Shown piece after piece: positions 12,955 to 25,725 of a stretch of 30,524 bases of DNA (position 1 is its first letter; each line of letters starts with the position of its first letter). The notes below the pieces were generated by a model. The model did no database searches, was not told the origin of the DNA, and saw only the letters and a list, made by a program, of their open reading frames with translations. The position numbers and the translations under genes were made by a program. This stretch comes from Erysipelotrichaceae bacterium (GTDB taxonomy: Bacteria > Bacillota_I > Bacilli_A > Erysipelotrichales > Coprobacillaceae). The stretch is taken from the NCBI GenBank assembly GCA_028698185.1, contig JAQVDW010000022.1:1-30524 (forward strand), read 5' to 3'.

Positions 12955-13006
12955 TTATTGTGTAATGAAACAATAAATGGTTTCGAATGAAATCAAGGAG
13001 AAGAAT

Positions 13007-15418
13007 ATGAAAAATGTGGAACATTTCGGCGACCTGACCCAAAGAATGAACGAATTCCGGGAAAAGGTTTTGGAGAAGAAACCTTACATCGATGCCCAGC
13101 GGGCCCTGTTGGCGACTGAGGCGTACCAGGCCAACCAGCACCAGAGCGCGGTGATGAAACGGGCCCTGATGCTAAAAAACATCCTGGAGAAAATGGATAT
13201 CTATATCGAAGATGAGACATTGATTGTCGGCAACCAGGCGGCATCGAACAAGGATGCCCCGGTATTTCCCGAGTATACCCTCGATTTTGTGATCAACGAG
13301 CTCGACCTGTTTGAAAAGCGGGACGGCGATGTGTTCTACATAACCGAAAAGACCAAAGAGGACTTGCGTACGATCGCACCTTTCTGGAAGAACAACAACC
13401 TCCGGGCCAAGGGCGGGGCGCTGCTGCCCGACGAGGTGGCAGTGTTCATGGAGACTGGCTTCTTTGGAATGGAAGGGAAGCTCAATTCCGGTGATGCCCA
13501 TCTGGCGGTCGACTATCAGACGATGCTCGAGACCGGCCTTAAAGGTTACCAAAGGCGGGTCGAAAGGCTCAAAGGGGAACTTGACCTTTGCGACGTTGCA
13601 AGCATCGACAAGTACCAGTTCTACAAGGCCGTGCTTATTGTCATCGAGGCGGTAAGGACGTTCGCATCCCGCTATGCTATCCTGGCCCGGGAGATGGCAG
13701 ATACTGCCAGTGGCCAAAGAAAAGAGGAACTGCTTGAAATCAGCCGGATCTGCGACAAGGTACCTTATGAAGCGGCGGAAACATTCCAGGAAGCGCTCCA
13801 GGCCACCTGGTTTATCCAGCTGATCTTGCAGATCGAATCGAACGGCCATTCCCTTTCGTACGGCCGCTTCGACCAGTATATCTATCCTTATTACAAGGCG
13901 GACAAAGACAATGGGAAAATAACCGATGACCAGGTGGTCGAACTGCTTAACAACCTGTGGATCAAGACCTTGACCATAAACAAGATCCGCTCGCAATCAC
14001 ATACGTTCTCAAGTGCGGGCAGCCCGATGTACCAGAACGTGACCATCGGCGGCCAGACTCCGGACAAAAAGGATGCGACCAATGAGCTTTCCTACCTGAT
14101 TTTGAAATCGGTTGCCCAGACCAGGCTGCCCCAGCCCAATCTGACAGTCCGCTATCATCGCAACATGCCAAAAGAATTCATGGATGAGGCGCTGGAAGTG
14201 ATGAAGCTGGGAACCGGGATGCCGGCATTCAACTCGGATGAAATCATCATCCCGTCGTTCATTGAAAAGGGTGTCAGCGAAGAGGATGCCTACAACTACT
14301 CGGCAATTGGCTGTGTCGAAACGGCGGTTCCGGGAAAATGGGGCTACCGCTGCACCGGGATGAGCTACATGAACTTCCCGCGGATCCTGCTTATCGTGAT
14401 GAACGACGGCATCGATCCGACCACCGGCCGACGCTTTGTCGCGGGGCGGGGGCATTTCAAGGACATGACCAGCTTCGATCAGCTGATGGAGGCCATCAAT
14501 GATGTGATGCGCGAGCTGACCAGGATGAGTGTCATCGTTGAAAACGCAATCGACCTGGCTTTGGAACGTGATGTTCCCGATGTGCTATGCTCAACACTGA
14601 CCCAGGACTGCATCGGACGGGGAAAAACCATCAAGGAAGGCGGAGCAATCTACGATTTCATTTCCGGATTGCAAGTCGGAATCGCCAACATGGCCGACTC
14701 TTTGGCGGCCATCAAGAAGCTGGTTTTCGAGGAAAAAACAATCACCACCCAGCAGCTTTTCGATGCGCTTCAGGACAACTTCGAAAGTGAAGAAGGCAAG
14801 AAAATCCAGATGCTGCTCATAAACGATGCTCCCAAATACGGCAATGACATCGATTATGTCGACAACCTGGTTGTCGCTGTGTATGACACCTATCTTGACG
14901 AGATGAAAAAATACCCGAACACCCGGTATGGCCGGGGTCCGATCGGGGGTATCCGCTACGGTGGGACTTCGAGCATTTCTGCCAATGTCGGTCAGGGCTT
15001 TGGCACCATGGCCACACCGGACGGCCGCAAGGCGCGAACCCCGCTGGCCGAAGGCTGTTCACCGGCCCACAACTGTGACAAGTCCGGGCCGACTGCGGTG
15101 TTCAAGTCGGTGGCCAAATTGCCGACCCATGAAATCACCGGCGGGGTCCTGCTCAACCAGAAGGTAACTCCGCAGCTGTTGCAGGATGAAGGAAACAAGC
15201 AGAAACTGTCAATGATGATCAGGACATTCTTCAACCGTCTTGACGGCTACCATGTCCAGTACAATGTCGTTTCCGGGGATACCCTGATCGAAGCGCAAAA
15301 ATATCCGGAAAAACACCGCGATCTGATTGTCCGGGTTGCCGGCTATTCGGCATTCTTCAATGTGCTCTCGAAAGCGACCCAGGATGACATCATCGAGCGG
15401 ACCGAACAAACTTTATAG
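13007..15418 (+). CDS. Glycyl radical enzyme, PFL2 / PflD-YbiW-like (putative sugar-phosphate C-O lyase/dehydratase)
   Basis: C-terminal glycyl-radical fingerprint RVAGYSAFF. Single catalytic Cys loop AIGCVETAVPGKWGYRCTGMS, with no PFL-type Cys-Cys. Blocks LILQIESNGHSLSYGRFDQYIYPYY, SAGSPMYQNVTIGGQ and ATPDGRKARTPLAEGCSPA resemble E. coli YbiW/PflD as I recall them. AAGGAG lies 7 nt before ATG 13007. Confidence 0.93.
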   Translation: MKNVEHFGDLTQRMNEFREKVLEKKPYIDAQRALLATEAYQANQHQSAVMKRALMLKNILEKMDIYIEDETLIVGNQAASNKDAPVFPEYTLDFVINELDLFEKRDGDVFYITEKTKEDLRTIAPFWKNNNLRAKGGALLPDEVAVFMETGFFGMEGKLNSGDAHLAVDYQTMLETGLKGYQRRVERLKGELDLCDVASIDKYQFYKAVLIVIEAVRTFASRYAILAREMADTASGQRKEELLEISRICDKVPYEAAETFQEALQATWFIQLILQIESNGHSLSYGRFDQYIYPYYKADKDNGKITDDQVVELLNNLWIKTLTINKIRSQSHTFSSAGSPMYQNVTIGGQTPDKKDATNELSYLILKSVAQTRLPQPNLTVRYHRNMPKEFMDEALEVMKLGTGMPAFNSDEIIIPSFIEKGVSEEDAYNYSAIGCVETAVPGKWGYRCTGMSYMNFPRILLIVMNDGIDPTTGRRFVAGRGHFKDMTSFDQLMEAINDVMRELTRMSVIVENAIDLALERDVPDVLCSTLTQDCIGRGKTIKEGGAIYDFISGLQVGIANMADSLAAIKKLVFEEKTITTQQLFDALQDNFESEEGKKIQMLLINDAPKYGNDIDYVDNLVVAVYDTYLDEMKKYPNTRYGRGPIGGIRYGGTSSISANVGQGFGTMATPDGRKARTPLAEGCSPAHNCDKSGPTAVFKSVAKLPTHEITGGVLLNQKVTPQLLQDEGNKQKLSMMIRTFFNRLDGYHVQYNVVSGDTLIEAQKYPEKHRDLIVRVAGYSAFFNVLSKATQDDIIERTEQTL

Positions 15419-15428
15419 GAGACAAAAA

Positions 15429-16109
15429 ATGGAATTCATTATCGATACAGTAAATCTAGAACAGATCGCCAGGGCGATCGAATACCTGCCAATTTGCGGG
15501 GTCACCAGCAATCCTTCGATTGTCAAAGCTACAGCGCCAGAGAATTTCTTCGACCATATGCGTGAGATACGCAAGATGATCGGAATGGAGCGCAGTCTCC
15601 ATATCCAGGTCATCGGACGCGACTGTGCGAACATGGTTGCACAGGCCCATCGGATTTTAAGCGAGATCGACGACCAGGTCTATGTCAAGGTCCCGGTCTG
15701 CCATGAAGGGATCAAGGCCATCAGGATTCTAAAAAAACAGGGGATCAGGGTGACCGCGACAGCAGTCTACGATCTGATGCAGGCGTACCTTGCGCTGGCG
15801 GCGGGGGCCGACTATATCGCACCTTATGTCAACCGGATCGGCAATCTCGGGGGCGATCCGATGACATTGATTGACGAGCTGGCCCACCGGATAGCACTTG
15901 ATGGAGCAAAGACGAAGATTGTCGCCGCCTCGTTCAAAGGCGTGGCGCAAGTCAGGGATTCGCTCAACCACGGGGCCCAGGCAGTGACCGTTCCCACCGC
16001 CATCCTCGACCAGATTTTCGTCAATCCCAGCATTGAAAAAGCAATGAGCGATTTCAACTCCGACTGGTACTCGATGTACGGTCAGGGCGTTGGTATTTGC
16101 GACCTGTGA
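15429..16109 (+). CDS. fsa: Fructose-6-phosphate-aldolase-type class I aldolase (transaldolase family), paralog 1
   Basis: MEFIIDTVNLEQI...LPICGVTSNPSIV...VYVKVPV (Schiff-base Lys context)...ADYIAPYVNRIGNLGGDP...ASFKG.. resembles E. coli FsaA/FsaB. Starts 10 nt after the GRE stop, with a TAGGAG RBS. The ORF-track start at 15327 overlaps the GRE and is unlikely. Confidence 0.88.
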   Translation: MEFIIDTVNLEQIARAIEYLPICGVTSNPSIVKATAPENFFDHMREIRKMIGMERSLHIQVIGRDCANMVAQAHRILSEIDDQVYVKVPVCHEGIKAIRILKKQGIRVTATAVYDLMQAYLALAAGADYIAPYVNRIGNLGGDPMTLIDELAHRIALDGAKTKIVAASFKGVAQVRDSLNHGAQAVTVPTAILDQIFVNPSIEKAMSDFNSDWYSMYGQGVGICDL

Positions 16110-16186: not shown

Positions 16187-17083
16187 TTAGAAGAAACAAT
16201 CGATGCCATTTTGGATGAAGATTTCCTGGTAATCCTTTAGATCTTCCTTGTAAAGCGCCTTGATGTTGCCATAGGCGTATTTGCGGTTGAGCAGATCGTA
16301 TTTGCCCTGGCCAAACTGGTGGAAAGGCAGCAGCTGGACCTGGAAAATGTTTAGCTTCCTGAACAGGGCGACAAAACTCCTGGCGTCATCGAGGGAATTG
16401 TTGAAATCGGGGATAACCGGAATCCGGGGCAGGATTTCCAGCCCGTTCTTGCAAGCCCACAACAGGTTGGCTAGAATCTGCTCATTGGTCACTCCGGTCA
16501 TCTCCCTGTGTTTGATCGAGTCATGGTGCTTGACATCGAAAAGCAGCAGATCGAAAAGCGGGGCGATTTTCTGGAATGTTGCCGCGCTTGCGAATCCGGT
16601 CGTCTCCAGGGCGACATGGATATCGTGGGCTTTTAACGCTGGGAGGAGTTTTTCCAAAAATGCCGGTTGGAGCAGCGCCTCGCCGCCCGACAGGGTCACG
16701 CCGCCGTTGGATTCTTCATAGAAGTCCTTGTCCTGGAGACACAAAGCGACGATGTCTGCCACGCTTCTGGATTCGCCCTCTCTGGTCAAGGCGTGCTGCG
16801 GACAGAAGGCGAGACATTCCTGGCAGCCGTCGCATTTGTTGCGGTCGATCACGATCCGGCCTTCTTGAAAGGAAATGGCACCTTTTTTGCAGCCCGGGAT
16901 GCACTTTTTACAGCCGCTGCATTTCTTGGCATCCCACAGGATTACGATTTTGCCTGATTGCGATTCGGGATTGGCGCACCAGCGACAGTGCAGCGGGCAA
17001 CCCTTGAAAAAGACGGTCGTGCGGATGCCCGGCCCGTCATGGATTGAGAATTTCTGGATATTGAAGATAAGACCTTGGTCCAT
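16187..17083 (-). CDS. Glycyl-radical-enzyme activating enzyme (radical SAM, with two auxiliary ferredoxin-like clusters)
   Basis: N-terminal FSIHDGPGIRTTVFFKGCPLHCRWCANPES (CX3CX2C) plus CSGCKKCIPGC and CDGCQECLAFCP motifs. AAGGAG lies 8 nt before the ATG. Confidence 0.93.
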   Translation of the reverse strand: MDQGLIFNIQKFSIHDGPGIRTTVFFKGCPLHCRWCANPESQSGKIVILWDAKKCSGCKKCIPGCKKGAISFQEGRIVIDRNKCDGCQECLAFCPQHALTREGESRSVADIVALCLQDKDFYEESNGGVTLSGGEALLQPAFLEKLLPALKAHDIHVALETTGFASAATFQKIAPLFDLLLFDVKHHDSIKHREMTGVTNEQILANLLWACKNGLEILPRIPVIPDFNNSLDDARSFVALFRKLNIFQVQLLPFHQFGQGKYDLLNRKYAYGNIKALYKEDLKDYQEIFIQNGIDCFF

Positions 17084-17315: not shown

Positions 17316-17999
17316 ATGGAAATACTGATTGACACAATCGATCTCGACCAGATCAAAGAAGCGGTCGAATACCTGCCGGTTGCCGGCGTTACAAGCAATC
17401 CTTCGATCGTCAAGAAAACAGCGCCAGCGGATTTTTTCAAGCATATGAACGAAATCCGCGCCATCATCGGCCAAAAGCGCAGTCTCCACGTCCAGGTCAT
17501 CGCCACCGATGCCCCGGGCATGGTCGCAGAGGCGCTGGAGATTCTTGAAAAAATCGACAAGAACGTCTATGTCAAGATTCCGGTGAGCTACGAAGGGATC
17601 AAGGCAATCAAGATCCTCAAGGAAAAAGGAGTCCGGGTGACTGCGACGGCCATCTATGACCTGATGCAGGCCTATCTTGCCCTGGAAGCGGGAGCCGACT
17701 ATCTCGCACCTTATGTCAACCGGATCGGCAATCTTGGGGGTGACCCGATGGAACTTATCGACAACCTGGCCATGAAGATCGCCAGCGACGATTACGATGC
17801 GAAAATCGTGGCAGCCAGCTTCAAAGGAGTGGAGCAGGTCAAACAGTCGCTCAATTTCGGGGCCCAGGCCATCACCGCACCAGTGGAGGTCCTCAAGGCG
17901 GTGTTCGCCAATCCCAATATCGCCAAGGCAATCAAAGATTTCAACAGCGACTGGCAGGATGTCTATGGGGCCAATGCCGGCCTGGTGGATTTGAAATAG
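17316..17999 (+). CDS. fsa: Fructose-6-phosphate-aldolase-type class I aldolase, paralog 2
   Basis: MEILIDTIDLDQI..LPVAGVTSNPSIV..VYVKIPV..ADYLAPYVNRIGNLGGDP.. is colinear with paralog 1 and transcribed divergently from the activase. Confidence 0.88.
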   Translation: MEILIDTIDLDQIKEAVEYLPVAGVTSNPSIVKKTAPADFFKHMNEIRAIIGQKRSLHVQVIATDAPGMVAEALEILEKIDKNVYVKIPVSYEGIKAIKILKEKGVRVTATAIYDLMQAYLALEAGADYLAPYVNRIGNLGGDPMELIDNLAMKIASDDYDAKIVAASFKGVEQVKQSLNFGAQAITAPVEVLKAVFANPNIAKAIKDFNSDWQDVYGANAGLVDLK

Positions 18000-20975: not shown

Positions 20976-21860
20976 TTATTTGACGATCTTCCAGTAACCC
21001 TGGCTGGCAGGGGTGCAGGCGACAGTGGAACCGACTCCCGTGATACTGCCAAGTAGCTCATAATCGGTGCCTTTGTGGGAAACCGTGGCGTCACCGACTG
21101 TATTGTCATTTCGATAATGGACATAATAGACACCATTGATGCAGACCATGCTTGATTGGATATCGCCCGCTTTCACGTCGTTACTGCCATAGGCGGCAAA
21201 GTAGACGGTATTGGTGTCCTGTGAAACAACCGGAACCCAGTATAGATCTTCTTCGCTGGATATCAGGTCTTTTTCGGCTGCTGTGACATCCTGGTATTGA
21301 CTGTTGGCCAAAACAAACTCCCGGAAATTCTTGGTTGTGCTGTTTTTGTTGACCAGGTCGGTCTTGTTGTCGGTATACATCTTGATGATATCGGTCGGGT
21401 CGAGATATGTCGCAACCGGATTGGCGCCATCGAAGATGACCACTTGCTTGTTGACCTTGACCAAAGCCACCTTGGCTGAACCGTCAAGGGCGGTGAAGTC
21501 GAACAGGAAAGAGTTGGCCGGCACGTCTTCGTCGTGGTAGCTGTTTGCTTCGCTGTAGTAAAGCAGGCTGTTGAGATTGAGCTCGCTGTCAAGCTGGTCG
21601 TTGACGTTGGCGATTATGGAGGCATTGGCCGTTTCATCCTGGTAGGTCATTTGGGCGTTTTCAAGCTTGTTGTCGATGGCATAGCGTGCCTGTTCGACCT
21701 GGAGAACCGAGTAGATGCTTTGGGCCTGCTGGATGTACTTGGCGTTGAGCGCGTCGGATACATAGCCCAATAGCACCGGAAAGGCGATTGCCGCGAGCAC
21801 AGCCATGATCAGGATGACGACGATCAGTTCAACAAGGGTGAATCCTTTATTGTTTTTCAT
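20976..21860 (-). CDS. Prepilin-type N-terminal cleavage/methylation domain protein (type IV pilin / pseudopilin-like) with a ~250-aa C-terminal domain
   Basis: MKNNKGFTLVELIVVILIMAVLAAIAFP is a class III signal (G|FTLVE, Glu at +5) followed by a hydrophobic helix. Confidence 0.8.
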   Translation of the reverse strand: MKNNKGFTLVELIVVILIMAVLAAIAFPVLLGYVSDALNAKYIQQAQSIYSVLQVEQARYAIDNKLENAQMTYQDETANASIIANVNDQLDSELNLNSLLYYSEANSYHDEDVPANSFLFDFTALDGSAKVALVKVNKQVVIFDGANPVATYLDPTDIIKMYTDNKTDLVNKNSTTKNFREFVLANSQYQDVTAAEKDLISSEEDLYWVPVVSQDTNTVYFAAYGSNDVKAGDIQSSMVCINGVYYVHYRNDNTVGDATVSHKGTDYELLGSITGVGSTVACTPASQGYWKIVK

Positions 21861-21962: not shown

Positions 21963-22415
21963 TTAATTTGTTTGTTCCTCGTGATGCAGTCTGCTGTTTT
22001 GTTTAAGCTCGATGACCTTTTGCGGTGTCAGGCTGTGATCGAAATCGGTCGTCCCTTCGTTGCAGGCTGTCTCATAAAACCAGCACTTGTACAGGATCGC
22101 GTTATATGTTTTTTCCATTTCGGCCATCTTTTTTTCCATATGGGCCTTCTGGCGGTGGAACATGTCACGCCGCTCCTCGATTGTCTCATCGCCCAAAAGG
22201 GTCCAGTCGACAAACTGCTTGATGTCCTTGATTGAAAGTCCCGAAGCCTTGAGGCATTGCACCAGGCGCAACAGGTTAAGATCGTCCTGGTTGAATGTCC
22301 GGATGCCGCTTGGAGTCCGGTTGACCAAAGGCAGCAGGCCTTCCTTGTCGTAATAACGCAAGGTGGATGGGGTGATACCTAAGATTTTCGCTACTTCTCC
22401 GATTGAATATTCCAT
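21963..22415 (-). CDS. MerR-family transcriptional regulator
   Basis: MEYSIGEVAKILGITPSTLRYYDKEGLLP is the MerR HTH, followed by a coiled-coil dimerisation helix. ATG 22415 lies 7 nt after GGAGG. The TTG start at 22427 in the ORF track is unlikely. Confidence 0.88.
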   Translation of the reverse strand: MEYSIGEVAKILGITPSTLRYYDKEGLLPLVNRTPSGIRTFNQDDLNLLRLVQCLKASGLSIKDIKQFVDWTLLGDETIEERRDMFHRQKAHMEKKMAEMEKTYNAILYKCWFYETACNEGTTDFDHSLTPQKVIELKQNSRLHHEEQTN

Positions 22416-22428
22416 AGTTTCCTCCAAA

Positions 22429-22446
22429 CTTAAAGTTAACTTTAAT
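22429..22446. promoter_or_regulatory. Near-perfect palindrome CTTAAAGT-TA-ACTTTAAT, candidate MerR-family operator
   Basis: TTAAAGTTAACTTTAA (22430-22445) is a perfect 16-bp palindrome, 14 nt upstream of the merR-family start codon. It shares 13/18 positions with the inverted repeat inside the 19-bp-spacer promoter at 27349-27379. Confidence 0.45.
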
Positions 22447-22749
22447 AGTTATGGAATTTATTTTATCATTTATCGCCATAATGTCAAGCAAACATTAGCC
22501 AAAGAAGATGCCCGGGTTTTCTTATGCCAGGCAGGGGCGCGGGAGGGGTTATGAATTCCGGTTATCATGACAGATGTCGCACCTTCTTGATAAAAAAAGG
22601 AATAAAAGTTCAGGATTTATGGCTCTGGATTCGATATTGCGGACTTTAGCTCCCCAATGGTCCACGGACCTTTTATTTGTGGGGAAATATGCTATTATTT
22701 TTTTGCCAGGAACAAATGATTCCTGAAAGAAAACACGGAGGATTCAGTT

Positions 22750-23235
22750 ATGGAATTTAAAAGCATCATGCACGTTTCATTCTTCACCGACCAGATGGAT
22801 GTGATGCGGGATTTTTATGAGAACAAACTTGGCTTGAAAACCAAGATCGTTACCCGCGCCCGCCTTTACGAAGGATTGAACCGTGGGGCCTACAGCGAAG
22901 TGGCAAAAATCGATCCTGATCGGATCATCATCGTCTACATCGAGATCGCTCCAGGCCAGTTCATCGAACTTTTCCCCAAAAACGAGGGTCAAAAGGAACA
23001 TGACCAATGGAATGAACGGGTAGGCTATTCGCATTTCGCCCTGCTTGTCGATGATATCGAAGACACAAGAGACCAGCTTGTCGCTGCCGGAGTGGAAATC
23101 GACACGCCCCTTTCAAAAGGGCCTTCGAACACTTGGCAGATGTGGGTTCACGATCCCGATGGGAATAAATTCGAAATCATGCAATACACGCCCGAATCGT
23201 TCCAGTTGGTTGGAAGCATCATGGAGTCCAAATAG
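22750..23235 (+). CDS. VOC (glyoxalase/bleomycin-resistance/dioxygenase) family protein
   Basis: 161 aa with two beta-alpha-beta-beta-beta-like modules (..HVSFFTDQMDVMRDFYENKLGLK.. and ..YSHFALLVDDIEDTRDQLVAAGVEI..). GGAGG RBS. Confidence 0.75.
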   Translation: MEFKSIMHVSFFTDQMDVMRDFYENKLGLKTKIVTRARLYEGLNRGAYSEVAKIDPDRIIIVYIEIAPGQFIELFPKNEGQKEHDQWNERVGYSHFALLVDDIEDTRDQLVAAGVEIDTPLSKGPSNTWQMWVHDPDGNKFEIMQYTPESFQLVGSIMESK

Positions 23236-23299
23236 TCAACCCGCTTGATCGAAGCAACTTGTATTAATCGCAAAATGAAAATCCAATGAGGTGGAAAAA

Positions 23300-24283
23300 A
23301 TGAAACTAGGAATTTTAGGAACCGGCATGATTGTCCAGGATTTGTTCAGGACAATCGACCTGATTCCAATTGAAAAAAAATATCTGCTGGGAACTCCAAG
23401 TACGAAGGACCAAACCGCAGAGCTTGCCAATAAATACAATCTTGACGGCTATGATCTCGATTATGATGCATTGCTTGCCCGCGATATTGACACTGTCTAT
23501 GTGGCCTTGCCAAACTACCTGCACTATTCTTTTGCCAAAAAGGCTCTCGAGAGCGGGAAACATGTCATCATCGAAAAGCCGGTGACTGCCAATGCGACCG
23601 AGCTTAAGGAGCTCATGGCCATCGCCAGGGAAAAGGACCTGTTTATCCTCGAAGCGATGAACATCCACTACCTGCCTACCTACAAGGCGCTTAAAGAAAA
23701 AGTTGAGGAAGTGGGAGCAGTCAAGATTGTCAGCTTCAACTACTCGCAATATTCATCACGCTACAATGCGTTCAAAAACGGGGACATCCTGCCGGCATTC
23801 GACTGCCATAAGGCCGGTGGGGCACTGATGGATCTAAATGTCTACAACCTCCATGGCATCATCGGCATCTTCGGCCGGCCCCAGAACATCATATACCAGG
23901 CCAACATTGAACGGGGCATCGACACCAGCGGAATCATGTTGCTTGACTATGGAACGTTCAAGGCTGTTTCAATCGGTGCGAAAGACTGCAAGGCACCGGT
24001 CATGCTGACAATCCAAGGTGATCAGGGGGTGATCCGGGTTGACACGCCAATCAACCAGCTCAAATCTTTCGAATATCTCACCAACACCAATGAAAGTGAG
24101 ACTGTCGCGATCGACAACGACAAGCACCGCCTGTACTATGAGTTTGTCGAATTCGGCCGCATCATCGACAGCAATGACCAGACAAAGGCGAAACAGATGC
24201 TTGAGTTGAGTTTTGTTGTCAGCGAAGTTATGGAAGAGGCCCGCAAACAAGCCGGTATCGTCTTCGACAACGATTTGAAATAA
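23300..24283 (+). CDS. Gfo/Idh/MocA-family NAD(P)-dependent oxidoreductase
   Basis: N-terminal Rossmann MKLGILGTGMI, the conserved EKP motif (HVIIEKPVTAN), and a C-terminal alpha/beta domain. Confidence 0.82.
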   Translation: MKLGILGTGMIVQDLFRTIDLIPIEKKYLLGTPSTKDQTAELANKYNLDGYDLDYDALLARDIDTVYVALPNYLHYSFAKKALESGKHVIIEKPVTANATELKELMAIAREKDLFILEAMNIHYLPTYKALKEKVEEVGAVKIVSFNYSQYSSRYNAFKNGDILPAFDCHKAGGALMDLNVYNLHGIIGIFGRPQNIIYQANIERGIDTSGIMLLDYGTFKAVSIGAKDCKAPVMLTIQGDQGVIRVDTPINQLKSFEYLTNTNESETVAIDNDKHRLYYEFVEFGRIIDSNDQTKAKQMLELSFVVSEVMEEARKQAGIVFDNDLK

Positions 24284-24346
24284 TGCTTTTGTGCATAGTT
24301 CGAAACTTCCACAAATTTCAAATCATCCACACATCCAAAGGTTTCA

Positions 24347-24375
24347 TTGACAAAATGATGGGCCTGAGGTATATT
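24347..24375 (+). promoter_or_regulatory. Sigma-A-like promoter driving the riboswitch leader
   Basis: TTGACA (24347-24352), 17-nt spacer, TATATT (24370-24375). A second candidate is TTGACT at 24380-24385 with CATAAT at 24401-24406. Confidence 0.5.
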
Positions 24376-24429
24376 GTTATTGACTTGAGGATGATTGTTA
24401 CATAATGAAATAGAATATATTCAAAAGTT

Positions 24430-24517
24430 ATCTAGGGTTTTGCAGTTTTAATGGGCAGCGACCAAGAGATAACTCACAGTTGAAACTGTGTCACGGAAGG
24501 ACAAAAGCCTGGGAGAT
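24430..24517 (+). promoter_or_regulatory. ykkC-family (guanidine-I-like) riboswitch aptamer, variant sequence
   Basis: Three conserved blocks occur in the right order and spacing. These are CUAGGGUU (24432-24439), GACCAAGAG (consensus GGUCCGAGAG), and CACGGAAGGACAAAAGCCUGGGAGA (consensus ACGGCGGGAnAAAAGCCCGGGAGA). There is an internal hairpin CACAGU-UGAA-ACUGUG. The CGGG/CCCG to AAGG/CCUG change is partly compensatory. Confidence 0.7.
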
Positions 24518-24553
24518 ATTATGACGATATCTTTCAGGCTTATTTTGATTTTT
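24505..24553 (+). terminator. Intrinsic terminator forming the riboswitch expression platform
   Basis: AAGCCUGGGAGAUAU / uaugacg / AUAUCUUUCAGGCUU, followed by auuuugauuuuu. The 5' arm is the conserved 3' strand of the aptamer, so the two folds are mutually exclusive (ON-switch logic). Confidence 0.75.
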
Positions 24554-24591
24554 GATGATATTTGTGTTTTCTGGAAGAAAGGATGCTCAAA

Positions 24592-25079
24592 ATGTTTAGA
24601 ACTATGAGAAGAAAAAAACAATTATTATCAACGGAAGAAATAGAGGTGATAATGAAAAGATGCACAAACGGCGTCTTGGCCTGTTTGGGTGATGATGACT
24701 ATCCGTATGCCGTCCCGGTGAGTTTTGTTTACTTTAACGATAGAATATATTTCCACACGGCAAAAGCAGGCCATAAGATCGATGCGATAACAAGATATTC
24801 AAAAGTATCATTTTCGGTGGTTGATGAAGATACTGTAGTAAGCGAAGAGTATACAACATACTTCCGCAGTGTTATCGCTTTTGGGAAAGCTAGAATAGTT
24901 GGGGAGAATGAAAAATTGGCGGCCTTTAAGGAATTGGTGAAAAAGTATTCCGGCGATCAACCGATGGATGCCCAACATAAGGAAATTGAAGGTGTGTTCA
25001 TGCATATATAGTTGCGATAGATGTTGAGCATATAACAGGTAAAGAAGCTATCGAATACAGCAAAGCAAAAAAACAGTGA
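24592..25079 (+). pseudogene. Pyridoxamine 5'-phosphate oxidase family (Pyridox_ox_2 / NimA-like flavoprotein), C-terminus displaced by a frameshift near 24990
   Basis: MFRTMRRKKQLLSTEEIEVIMKRCTNGVLACLGDDDYPYAVPVSFVY..IYFHTAKAGHKID is typical of the family. Frame 1 stops at 25009-25011. Frame 0 continues ..CVHAYIVAIDVEHITGKEAIEYSKAKKQ with a stop at 25077-25079, and that is the expected family C-terminus (..IEHxTGKE..). Confidence 0.78.
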
Positions 25080-25604
25080 CGATATATGGAGATTGGGACG
25101 AATCCTGATCCTGTTGCACCTGCCGAACAATGAGATATTACCAGTCCGCCATTTTTCATATCGGAAGAACCTGAGCGAAGCAAATTCAAATATCAATGTT
25201 TGCTCAACAATTTGAGAACCGAGGACCCCAAGTGGCGAGAATGGATCCGATATTTCATCGAGGTTCCAATCAATCAGGCAATACATATATTGATACACCT
25301 GTTTAACTCGAACTGCTTCATCGTGAAACCGGGGTCCATGGCCTTAGTCAAAATATTGATTTGAGGCAGTGAATCCAATATTCAGGAATGCGGTTTCCAC
25401 CATCAATTATGAGGGGTTACACAAAGGTAGTACCAATGCCTCAAGAAGGTCCGTCGATGCCTTTGTAGCACCGTTAGGGTTTATCCTGATGACAGGAAGA
25501 ATAACAAGGTGGCGTTTCTATGACTTGGAGGGTCCAATGCGCCAATTGCCTGTATTCATGTTCGACTGGAAAGCTGGCTATGGCCGGCTTTTTTGATTTG
25601 ACAG

Positions 25605-25635
25605 ACAAAAAGACCCGGTCCATAATCTGGACCGG
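25605..25635 (-). terminator. Rho-independent terminator downstream of the EIIC gene
   Basis: Minus strand: ccggtcc / agattat / ggaccgg followed by gtcttttt. Confidence 0.6.
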
Positions 25636-25725
25636 AATCTTGAAGGTCGAATCATTGTTCAGTTGGGATGAATCAGGTAAAGGTGAGCAAACCTGATCCC
25701 ATAAAGAATATGTCAGGTTGTTGGA

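What the first reader, a model, noticed from the sequence alone, without database searches (positions are those of the whole stretch)
24430..24553. Variant ykkC-family (guanidine-I-like) riboswitch with an ON-type terminator platform in front of a PNPOx/NimA-like flavoprotein gene
Seen in the sequence: CUAGGGUU ... GACCAAGAG ... CACGGAAGGACAAAAGCCUGGGAGA reproduces the three signature blocks of the ykkC-yxkD (guanidine-I) aptamer. The consensus as I recall it is CUAGGGUUCCG / GGUCCGAGAG / ACGGCGGGAnAAAAGCCCGGGAGA.

The 3' block doubles as the 5' arm of a 15-bp terminator stem followed by a U-rich tract. This is the classic ligand-stabilised anti-termination layout.

Differences from the guanidine consensus sit in the central block and the P3 stem. 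The GGG/CCC to AGG/CCU change is partly compensatory.

Established: ykkC subtype 1 senses guanidine and controls carboxylases and SugE/Gdx exporters. Subtype 2 variants sense ppGpp, PRPP or nucleoside diphosphates.

Inference: a Pyridox_ox_2-type flavoprotein is not a gene class I associate with any of these. This may be a variant with a different ligand or a new regulon member.
Basis: partly seen in the sequence, partly recalled or inferred. Interest (0 to 1): 0.7.

Follow-up and report, generated by a model that had tools for sequence, protein, structure and literature searches.

The report
Guanidine-I riboswitch before NimA-like flavoprotein gene
This is an ordinary, slightly eroded guanidine-sensing (guanidine-I) riboswitch that switches on a small flavoprotein gene of unknown role, a pairing already listed in the literature and frameshifted in this particular genome.

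Summary
Window 24421-24517 (+) matches Rfam RF00442 (Guanidine-I) end to end at 62.0 bits, E 6.9e-11. That is one bit under the curated cut-off of 63. A terminator hairpin (24505-24541, then a U tract) uses the 3' half of P3 as its 5' arm, which is the classic ON layout.

The "different ligand" idea is not supported. Every nucleotide that contacts guanidinium in the crystal structures is unchanged. The adenosine that separates subtype 1 from subtype 2 is an A (24467). The same sequence variant (GACCAAGAG, A-U top pair of P3) sits upstream of Gdx/SugE guanidinium exporter genes in other genomes.

Of 80 species-level loci encoding close homologues of the flavoprotein, 22 carry RF00442 at 67-90 bits upstream on the same strand. 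Twelve are riboswitch-gdx-nimA operons, and all 22 share the same terminator design.

The NimA/PNPOx association was already tabulated by Lenkeit et al. 2020: 10.5% of guanidine-IV and 0.08% of guanidine-I riboswitches. The protein's function remains uncharacterised.

In this window the gene carries a 1-nt deletion (GGG to GG at 24991-24992) that truncates it. The aptamer also has two extra P1b substitutions relative to a 98%-identical sister contig, which has an intact gene and scores 65.1 bits.

The parts
24347..24375 (+). Promoter-like site: TTGACA, 17-nt spacer, TATATT. The inferred transcription start is about 24382.
   Evidence: 11 of 12 hexamer matches. This is a consensus match only; the region as a whole is not enriched over shuffles.
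24421..24517 (+). Guanidine-I (ykkC subtype 1) aptamer.
- P1: 24427-24432 with 24468-24473.
- P1a/P1b: 24435-24463.
- P2: 24475-24490.
- P3 and pocket: 24492-24516.
- Subtype marker A24467. Pocket nucleotides G24466, G24495, G24496, G24512, G24513, A24514, G24515.
   Evidence: -: RF00442, 62.0 bits, E 6.9e-11, full-length match.
- the fold is kept in 98.3% of pair cells across 24 related aptamers, with 7 compensatory pairs.
- Nucleotide mapping follows PMC5340920.
24440..24460 (+). P1b, the deviant part. U24440 and U24441 replace the consensus C-C, giving G-U wobbles. A24451 breaks the loop-closing pair with G24445. G24455 lies in the unpaired stretch.
   Evidence: -: sister contig L081 has C at both 24451 and 24455 and scores 65.1 bits.
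- only the window and L081 have UU at these columns.
24505..24541 (+). Intrinsic terminator hairpin. Its 5' arm (24505-24520) is the 3' strand of P3 plus GGGAGA.
   Evidence: -: 16 pairs, 5 G-C pairs, 5-nt loop.
- the terminator is part of the minimum-free-energy fold.
- the same design is present in all 22 related loci.
24542..24554 (+). U-rich tract after the terminator (AUUUUGAUUUUUG).
24578..24594 (+). Ribosome-binding site AAAGGA (24578-24583) and start codon ATG at 24592.
   Evidence: Read from the sequence. The N-terminus MFRTMRR aligns with residue 1 of the homologues.
24592..25011 (+). NimA-like PNPOx-family flavoprotein gene. It is truncated by a 1-nt deletion at 24991-24992, with a premature stop at 25009-25011.
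   Evidence: -: Pyridox_ox_2, E 9.9e-21.
- GG in the window against GGG in L081.
- the reconstructed 162-aa protein is 98% identical to intact P0001.
24990..25079 (+). Out-of-frame C-terminal remainder of the same gene (RCVHAYIVAIDVEHITGKEAIEYSKAKKQ*).
   Evidence: The C-terminus matches full-length homologues.

Best explanation
The element is a guanidine-I (ykkC subtype 1) riboswitch working as a transcriptional ON switch.

**Mechanism.** Without ligand, nucleotides 24505-24520 pair with 24526-24541. These nucleotides are the 3' strand of P3 and the GGGAGA pocket segment. The resulting intrinsic terminator stops transcription at the U tract before the gene. When guanidinium binds the pocket formed by G24466/A24467 (L1 bulge) and G24495, G24496 and G24513 (P3 S-turn), P3 is held closed. 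The terminator cannot form, and RNA polymerase reads into the NimA-like flavoprotein gene.

**Origin of the arrangement.** It descends from a widespread Firmicute operon of riboswitch, gdx (guanidinium exporter) and nimA-like gene. This lineage has lost gdx.

**State in this genome.** The copy here is at the weak edge of the family: UU for CC at the base of P1b and one broken P1b pair. The gene it controls is frameshifted, so the switch may be regulating a pseudogene.

**What is shown and what is inferred.** Shown: homology, fold, pocket identity, terminator overlap and recurrent gene context. Inferred: guanidine binding and read-through.
For: **Match and pocket**
- The full-length RF00442 match has E 6.9e-11.
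- The orthologous aptamer in a 98%-identical contig scores 65.1 bits, above the gathering score.
- All guanidinium-contacting and S-turn nucleotides defined in PMC5340920 are present and invariant in 24 relatives.
- The subtype-1 marker adenosine is present (PMC6031431).

**Fold**
- The crystal-derived fold is kept in 98.3% of pair cells, against 28-48% for slid controls. Seven pairs show compensatory changes.

**Expression platform**
- The terminator overlaps P3 and is part of the minimum-free-energy fold.
- The same platform is present in all 22 related loci.

**Gene context**
- 22 of 80 homologue loci have RF00442 at 67-90 bits upstream on the same strand.
- 12 of these have SMR genes between the riboswitch and nimA, and one has gdx after nimA.
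- The SMR protein matches Gdx-Clo (PDB 6wk5) at E 1e-44.
- A C14-to-U aptamer also precedes two SMR genes in L082.
- The published tabulation links NimA to guanidine riboswitches.
Against: - The score is 1 bit under Rfam's gathering threshold.
- C14U and C15U alter the G31-C14-U12 base triple seen in the crystal structure. U32A and G35A alter L1. Their effect on affinity is untested.
- G24445-A24451 breaks a P1b pair.
- The regulated gene is frameshifted in this window.
- No exporter or guanidine-degradation gene lies in the 30.5-kb window.
- No binding or termination experiment exists for this sequence.
Confidence: 0.8

Rival explanations
1. It is a relic. The aptamer and its gene are decaying in this strain, so the element no longer gives useful regulation even though it descends from a guanidine-I riboswitch.
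For: - A 1-nt deletion truncates the flavoprotein by about 27 conserved C-terminal residues.
- The window aptamer has two extra P1b substitutions relative to L081, one of which breaks a pair. This drops the score from 65.1 to 62.0 bits.
- Erosion of this operon is common elsewhere. Fragments of gdx lie upstream of nimA without a riboswitch in L009, L020 and L032. gdx is split into two frames in L024.
Against: - The deletion sits in a G run and could be an assembly or sequencing error.
- Two substitutions in 97 nt equals the 2% background divergence between the two contigs.
- The pocket, P1, P2, P3, terminator, RBS and start codon are all intact.
Confidence: 0.25
2. It is a specificity variant. 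The UU / A32 / A35 / A-U version of the ykkC fold senses something other than free guanidine, such as a substituted guanidine that is the flavoprotein's substrate.
For: - The score is sub-threshold and several conserved L1/P1b positions are changed.
- The first gene is an oxidoreductase rather than an exporter or carboxylase.
- The ykkC fold is known to change ligand with few mutations (PMC6031431).
Against: - None of the changed positions contacts the ligand.
- The marker adenosine and S-turn guanines are unchanged.
- There is no P0 extension.
- A32, A35 and the A-U pair occur in aptamers that directly precede Gdx exporters. U14 does too.
- The guanidine-I pocket leaves little room for larger ligands (PMC5340920).
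Confidence: 0.06
3. It is a chance resemblance, or a structure belonging to the minus strand.
For: A 57-aa ORF overlaps on the minus strand at 24448-24621.
Against: - E 6.9e-11 on the plus strand only.
- The element is conserved in 22 distant genomes with covariation.
- The minus-strand ORF has no support.
Confidence: 0.01

Closest known systems
Guanidine-I riboswitch (ykkC-yxkD motif, subtype 1; Rfam RF00442)
   Same: - Same P1/P1a/P1b/P2/P3 architecture, A-loop, S-turn and all ligand-contacting nucleotides.
- Same subtype marker adenosine.
- Same terminator-based ON platform.
- Relatives control Gdx exporters.
   Different: - The score is 62.0 bits against the cut-off of 63.
- C14U and C15U give wobble pairs.
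- U32A and G35A are changed, and the top pair of P3 is A-U rather than G-C.
- One P1b pair is broken.
- The first, and here only, gene is a NimA-like flavoprotein. Lenkeit 2020 found this for only 0.08% of guanidine-I riboswitches.
Guanidine-IV (mepA / GGAM-1) riboswitch operons with gdx and NimA genes (Lenkeit et al. 2020, PMC7736828)
   Same: Same regulated gene class. RNA, then EmrE/SugE, then Pyridox_ox_2 operons are listed in the supplement, and NimA is the first gene for 10.5% of members. It is also a transcriptional ON switch for guanidine.
   Different: The RNA fold is entirely different. A crude regex for two guanidine-IV sequence motifs found no co-occurring match upstream of the 58 homologue loci that lack RF00442.
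ykkC subtype 2 riboswitches (ppGpp, PRPP, ADP/CDP, orphan 2d)
   Same: Same overall ykkC scaffold and ON logic.
   Different: - Subtype 2 has a pyrimidine at the marker position, altered S-turn and pocket nucleotides, and a P0 helix. The window has none of these.
- The gene contexts differ: branched-chain amino acid and purine synthesis, NUDIX/HAD hydrolases, EamA/TauE transporters (PMC7266159).
NimA / Pyridox_ox_2 (PF12900, COG3467) FMN-binding split-barrel proteins
   Same: Pfam match at E 1e-20. The nearest solved structures are BH0577 (2hti, E 3e-11) and a Bacteroides 5-nitroimidazole resistance protein (2fg9, E 5e-6).
   Different: The relationship to characterised NimA is only distant. 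No substrate is known for this clade, and the copy here is frameshifted.

Membership tests
Guanidine-I riboswitch (RF00442, ykkC subtype 1) | Significant full-length match to the family covariance model | tested here: met
   model positions 1-107 of 107, 62.0 bits, E 6.9e-11, plus strand only.
Guanidine-I riboswitch (RF00442, ykkC subtype 1) | Reaches Rfam's curated gathering score of 63 bits. This is an operational cut-off, not a structural feature. | tested here: not met
   62.0 bits, 1 bit short. The orthologous aptamer in sister contig L081 scores 65.1. The 22 related aptamers score 67.4-89.8.
Guanidine-I riboswitch (RF00442, ykkC subtype 1) | P1, P1a, P1b, P2 and P3 helices plus the long-range C64-G84 and C66-G87 pairs | tested here: met
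   98.3% of pair cells form standard pairs across 24 sequences, 7 pairs have compensatory changes, and slid controls give 28-48%. In the window only G24445-A24451 fails to pair.
Guanidine-I riboswitch (RF00442, ykkC subtype 1) | Guanidinium pocket nucleotides (D. dadantii numbering G37, A38, G67, G68, G85), S-turn G84, and the A-loop | tested here: met
   The window has G24466, A24467, G24495, G24496, G24513, G24512 and A24503-24506, all invariant in the 24-sequence alignment.
Guanidine-I riboswitch (RF00442, ykkC subtype 1) | Adenosine, not a pyrimidine, at the subtype 1 versus subtype 2 marker position | tested here: met
   A24467. The criterion comes from PMC6031431 and PMC5340920.
Guanidine-I riboswitch (RF00442, ykkC subtype 1) | Guanidine-related gene context | tested here: met
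   - In relatives the same riboswitch clade precedes gdx, with or without the nimA-like gene.
- The gdx product matches Gdx-Clo (6wk5) at E 1e-44.
- NimA is listed as a guanidine-riboswitch gene class.
- In the window itself only nimA is present.
Guanidine-I riboswitch (RF00442, ykkC subtype 1) | Selective binding of guanidinium and ligand-dependent anti-termination | not testable with these tools
   This needs in-line probing or ITC and transcription assays.
ykkC subtype 2 (ppGpp / PRPP / NDP / 2d) | Pyrimidine at the marker position, altered pocket, and a P0 helix from conserved 5' and 3' tails | tested here: not met
   The marker is A24467 and the pocket is identical to subtype 1. The 3' tail after GGGAGA is the terminator arm, not a P0 strand.
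NimA-like PNPOx family (PF12900 / COG3467) | Pfam domain match above the curated cut-off | tested here: met
   PF12900 at 74.6 bits (cut-off 27) and PF01243 at 54.9 bits (cut-off 28.1).
NimA-like PNPOx family (PF12900 / COG3467) | Intact full-length reading frame of about 160 aa | tested here: not met
   a 1-nt deletion at 24991-24992 truncates the product to 139 aa, against 162 aa in P0001/L081.

The most novel reading that the evidence does not exclude
The riboswitch-controlled NimA-like flavoprotein is a dedicated enzyme of a still undescribed guanidine-related pathway in anaerobic Firmicutes, for example reductive conversion of an N-substituted guanidine such as hydroxy- or nitroguanidine.

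It is co-selected with the Gdx exporter under two unrelated guanidine riboswitch classes. Lineages like this one, which keep only riboswitch plus enzyme, show that it can act without the exporter.

A more radical version is that this UU/A-U aptamer variant senses the enzyme's substrate rather than guanidine. I put that at about 0.06.
Probability: 0.3. Interest if true: 0.55.

Novelty: new member of a known kind. Interest (0 to 1): 0.27.

Why it matters
For riboswitch biology this is a routine, low-scoring member of a well-characterised class. It shows that a family search at the curated threshold misses real, orthologous members by a bit or two.

The more useful point is the gene. A NimA-like FMN protein is repeatedly wired to guanidine sensing, here with guanidine-I and in the literature mainly with guanidine-IV, and often in one operon with the Gdx exporter. 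No function has been assigned. Sources and fates of guanidine in anaerobes are an acknowledged gap (PMC12186494), so this protein clade is a concrete candidate for experiments.

Tried and rejected
- **Whole-window Rfam scan at gathering thresholds:** no hit. A sensitive scan of 341 nt was needed.
- **Identifying the source genome** through an exact-protein look-up of the PTS EIIC gene: not on record.
- **Guanidine-IV upstream of the 58 homologue loci without RF00442:** a regex for GGUCUGAG and CCGGGAG found no co-occurring pair, and Rfam gave no riboswitch hit upstream of nimA there. The regex is crude, and I did not verify that Rfam 15 holds a guanidine-IV model.
- **Nelson et al. 2017 (PMC5360189),** the primary source for the subtypes, is not held. 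The subtype criteria were taken from PMC5340920 and PMC6031431 instead.
- **Literature searches** pairing guanidine riboswitch terms with pyridoxamine, NimA, PNPOx, nitroreductase, hydroxyguanidine or nitroguanidine found no functional study of the protein.
- **Metagenome scan for the UU variant:** zero hits. A relaxed U14 scan found one (L082), upstream of two SMR genes.
- **Subtype 2 Rfam models:** I could not confirm that they are in the library. Absence of such hits is therefore not used as evidence.
- **Structure prediction of the flavoprotein** was not run. It would not settle the substrate.

Full report

Yes. The three quoted blocks are at 24432-24439 (CUAGGGUU), 24460-24468 (GACCAAGAG) and 24492-24516 (CACGGAAGGACAAAAGCCUGGGAGA).

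Rfam at gathering thresholds reports nothing in the whole window. A sensitive scan of 24280-24620 gives a full-length match to RF00442 Guanidine-I at 24421-24517 on the plus strand. It covers model positions 1-107 of 107 at 62.0 bits, against a gathering score of 63, with E 6.9e-11. No other family comes near.

A terminator-like hairpin lies at 24505-24541: 16 pairs, 5 of them G-C, with a 5-nt loop and a U-rich tail. The 141-nt leader folds at -46.5 kcal/mol, z = -5.55 against dinucleotide shuffles. In that fold P1, P1b, P2 and the terminator are formed and P3 is not.

A promoter-like site, TTGACA-17-TATATT, lies at 24347-24375. The downstream ORF is a Pyridox_ox_2/PNPOx_N protein. Its likely start is ATG 24592, behind AAAGGA at 24578-24583.

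**2. Which ykkC subtype?**

I mapped the window onto the D. dadantii crystal structure numbering (PMC5340920).

| Structure position(s) | Role | Window |
|---|---|---|
| C6-G39 | base of P1 | C24432-G24468 |
| G37/A38 | bulge that docks into P3 | G24466/A24467 |
| G67 | pocket floor | G24495 |
| G68 | phosphate contact | G24496 |
| G85 | Hoogsteen contact | G24513 |
| C64-G84 | long-range pair | C24492-G24512 |
| C66-G87 | long-range pair | C24494-G24515 |
| A-loop | P3 loop docking into P1a | A24503-24506 |

All are present. The position used in the literature to separate guanidine aptamers from subtype 2 is A46 in S. acidophilus numbering, which is A38 here. It is a pyrimidine in subtypes 2a and 2b (PMC6031431; PMC5340920). 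In the window it is an adenosine.

The deviations from consensus are:
- C14U and C15U (24440-24441), both keeping G-U wobbles.
- U32A (24461).
- G35A (24464).
- G70-C82 to A-U (24498/24510), a fully compensatory change.

None of these contacts the ligand.

**3. Related sequences**

The downstream ORF stops early. The next frame continues with ...HAYIVAIDVEHITGKEAIEYSKAKKQ*. The reconstructed 162-aa protein finds thousands of full-length homologues of 160-162 aa, and the best (P0001) is 98% identical.

P0001's contig (L081, a Logan assembly of SRR29553507) is 98% identical to window 24150-25650 and has the same synteny. It has GGG where the window has GG at 24991-24992, so the window gene carries a 1-nt deletion in a G run. 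L081's aptamer differs at two P1b positions (C instead of A24451, C instead of G24455) and scores 65.1 bits, above the gathering score.

A scan of one genome per species returned 80 loci encoding homologues at 64-81% identity. The organisms are mainly Clostridia and Negativicutes, with a few bins labelled Synergistaceae or archaeal. A regex found a ykkC aptamer in 22 of them, and Rfam confirmed the same 22. All are upstream of the gene on its strand, at 67.4-89.8 bits.

- In 12 of the 22, one or two SMR genes lie between the riboswitch and the flavoprotein gene.
- In L073 an SMR gene follows the flavoprotein gene.
- In 8 the flavoprotein gene comes first.

The single-gene SMR protein matches Gdx-Clo (PDB 6wk5, 6wk8, 6wk9) at E 1e-44. 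To my knowledge this is the structurally characterised guanidinium exporter.

All 22 loci have a terminator whose 5' arm is AAAAGCCUGGGAGAUAU. On an alignment of the 24 aptamers, the crystal-derived structure is kept in 98.3% of pair cells. Slid controls give 28-48%. Seven pairs show compensatory changes, and no shuffle reaches the observed covariation.

- GACC for GUCC occurs in most members.
- CCAAGAG occurs in 9 of 22 loci, including aptamers directly upstream of gdx (L008, L018, L022).
- The A-U top pair of P3 occurs in 22 of 24 sequences.

Only UU at 24440-24441 is specific to the window/L081 lineage. A metagenome scan found no other UU example. It did find one U14 aptamer, again upstream of two SMR genes (L082).

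**4. Mechanism**

By homology and anatomy this is a guanidine-responsive ON switch. Ligand binding closes P3 and the S-turn pocket and sequesters 24505-24516. Otherwise that segment forms the 5' arm of the terminator.

The overlap, the default terminator fold and the conservation of this platform are shown. Guanidine binding and read-through are inferred.

The likely ancestral unit is riboswitch, gdx and nimA-like gene. It erodes often. Fragments of gdx without a riboswitch lie upstream of nimA in L009, L020 and L032, and gdx is split between frames in L024. The window lineage has no gdx within 30.5 kb.

In this genome the switch may be regulating a pseudogene. The alternative is that the single-base deletion is a sequencing error, and I cannot tell which.

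**5. Comparison with what is known**

The class is guanidine-I. The pairing with NimA/PNPOx genes is already in the literature. Lenkeit et al. [quoted passage not shown] Their supplementary file lists RNA, then EmrE, then Pyridox_ox_2 operons.

Their discussion treats these as uncharacterised genes implicated in guanidine biology. A 2025 review does not mention the protein. I found no paper assigning it a function.

The nearest solved structures are BH0577 (2hti) and a Bacteroides Nim-type protein (2fg9), both only distantly related.

**6. Verdict**

It is a ykkC-family ON riboswitch in front of a NimA-like gene. It is not a new ligand variant, and the gene association is not new.

This is a new, low-scoring member of a known class, in a locus that looks mildly degraded. 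The residual interest lies in the uncharacterised flavoprotein. It is tied to guanidine sensing by two unrelated riboswitch classes and by operon linkage to Gdx. My small survey (22 of 80 homologue loci) suggests the guanidine-I linkage is commoner within this protein clade than the 0.08% figure implies. That figure is computed over all guanidine-I riboswitches and counts first genes only.

Noticed in passing
window 24991-24992 (gene 24592-25079): The NimA-like gene has a 1-nt deletion in a G run (GG against GGG in the 98%-identical contig L081). This gives a premature stop at 25009-25011. The last 27 or so conserved residues are encoded out of frame. It is either a pseudogene or a homopolymer sequencing error.
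   Followed up: yes
L009 1042-1224; L020 2666-2902; L032 2827-2910; L024 2517-2823: Truncated or frameshifted gdx/sugE remnants lie just upstream of nimA homologues. In L009, L020 and L032 there is no RF00442 hit. The riboswitch-gdx-nimA operon seems to erode repeatedly from its 5' end.
   Followed up: partly
L006, L023, L042 (Negativicutes-type loci): Here the guanidine-I riboswitch precedes two adjacent SMR genes (a ykkC/ykkD-like pair) and then nimA. The aptamers have the canonical GUCC block, and L023 also has the G-C top pair of P3. The nimA linkage therefore spans both aptamer flavours.
   Followed up: partly
window 25080-25725: About 650 bp between the nimA-like gene and the convergent PTS EIIC gene have no long ORF, yet are 98% conserved with L081. 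Only short ORFs are present (for example 25369-25596 and 25520-25696). This may be a degraded gene or non-coding sequence.
   Followed up: no
window 20976-21860 (-): A 294-aa protein begins with MKNNKGFTLVELIVVILIMAVLAAIAFP, which is a type IV pilin / pseudopilin N-terminal motif. The rest of the protein has no family assignment that I checked.
   Followed up: no
window 21963-24283: A MerR-family regulator (minus strand) is divergent from a glyoxalase/VOC-family gene (22750-23235) and a Gfo/Idh/MocA oxidoreductase (23291-24283). This cluster lies directly upstream of the riboswitch promoter. The oxidoreductase-riboswitch junction is conserved in L081.
   Followed up: partly
window 5756-6409, 15327-16109, 17316-17999; 12977-15418; 16187-17083 (-): There are three paralogous transaldolase/fructose-6-phosphate-aldolase genes. 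They sit with a PFL-like glycyl-radical enzyme and a radical-SAM activase, a split transketolase, PTS components and two DeoR regulators. This is an anaerobe sugar or deoxy-sugar utilisation island unrelated to the riboswitch.
   Followed up: no
L049, L054: Close homologues of the flavoprotein (71-72% identity) sit on contigs binned as Methanomassiliicoccaceae and Methanosarcina MAGs. This is either horizontal transfer into archaea or mis-binning. Neither has an RF00442 hit.
   Followed up: no
L034 567-604; L051 6400-6486; L003 1558-1743; L072 239-358: Other Rfam elements lie in the flanks of homologue loci: SECIS_4, a NiCo riboswitch (cut by the locus end), a cobalamin riboswitch and a Moco riboswitch. 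None is positioned to control nimA.
   Followed up: no
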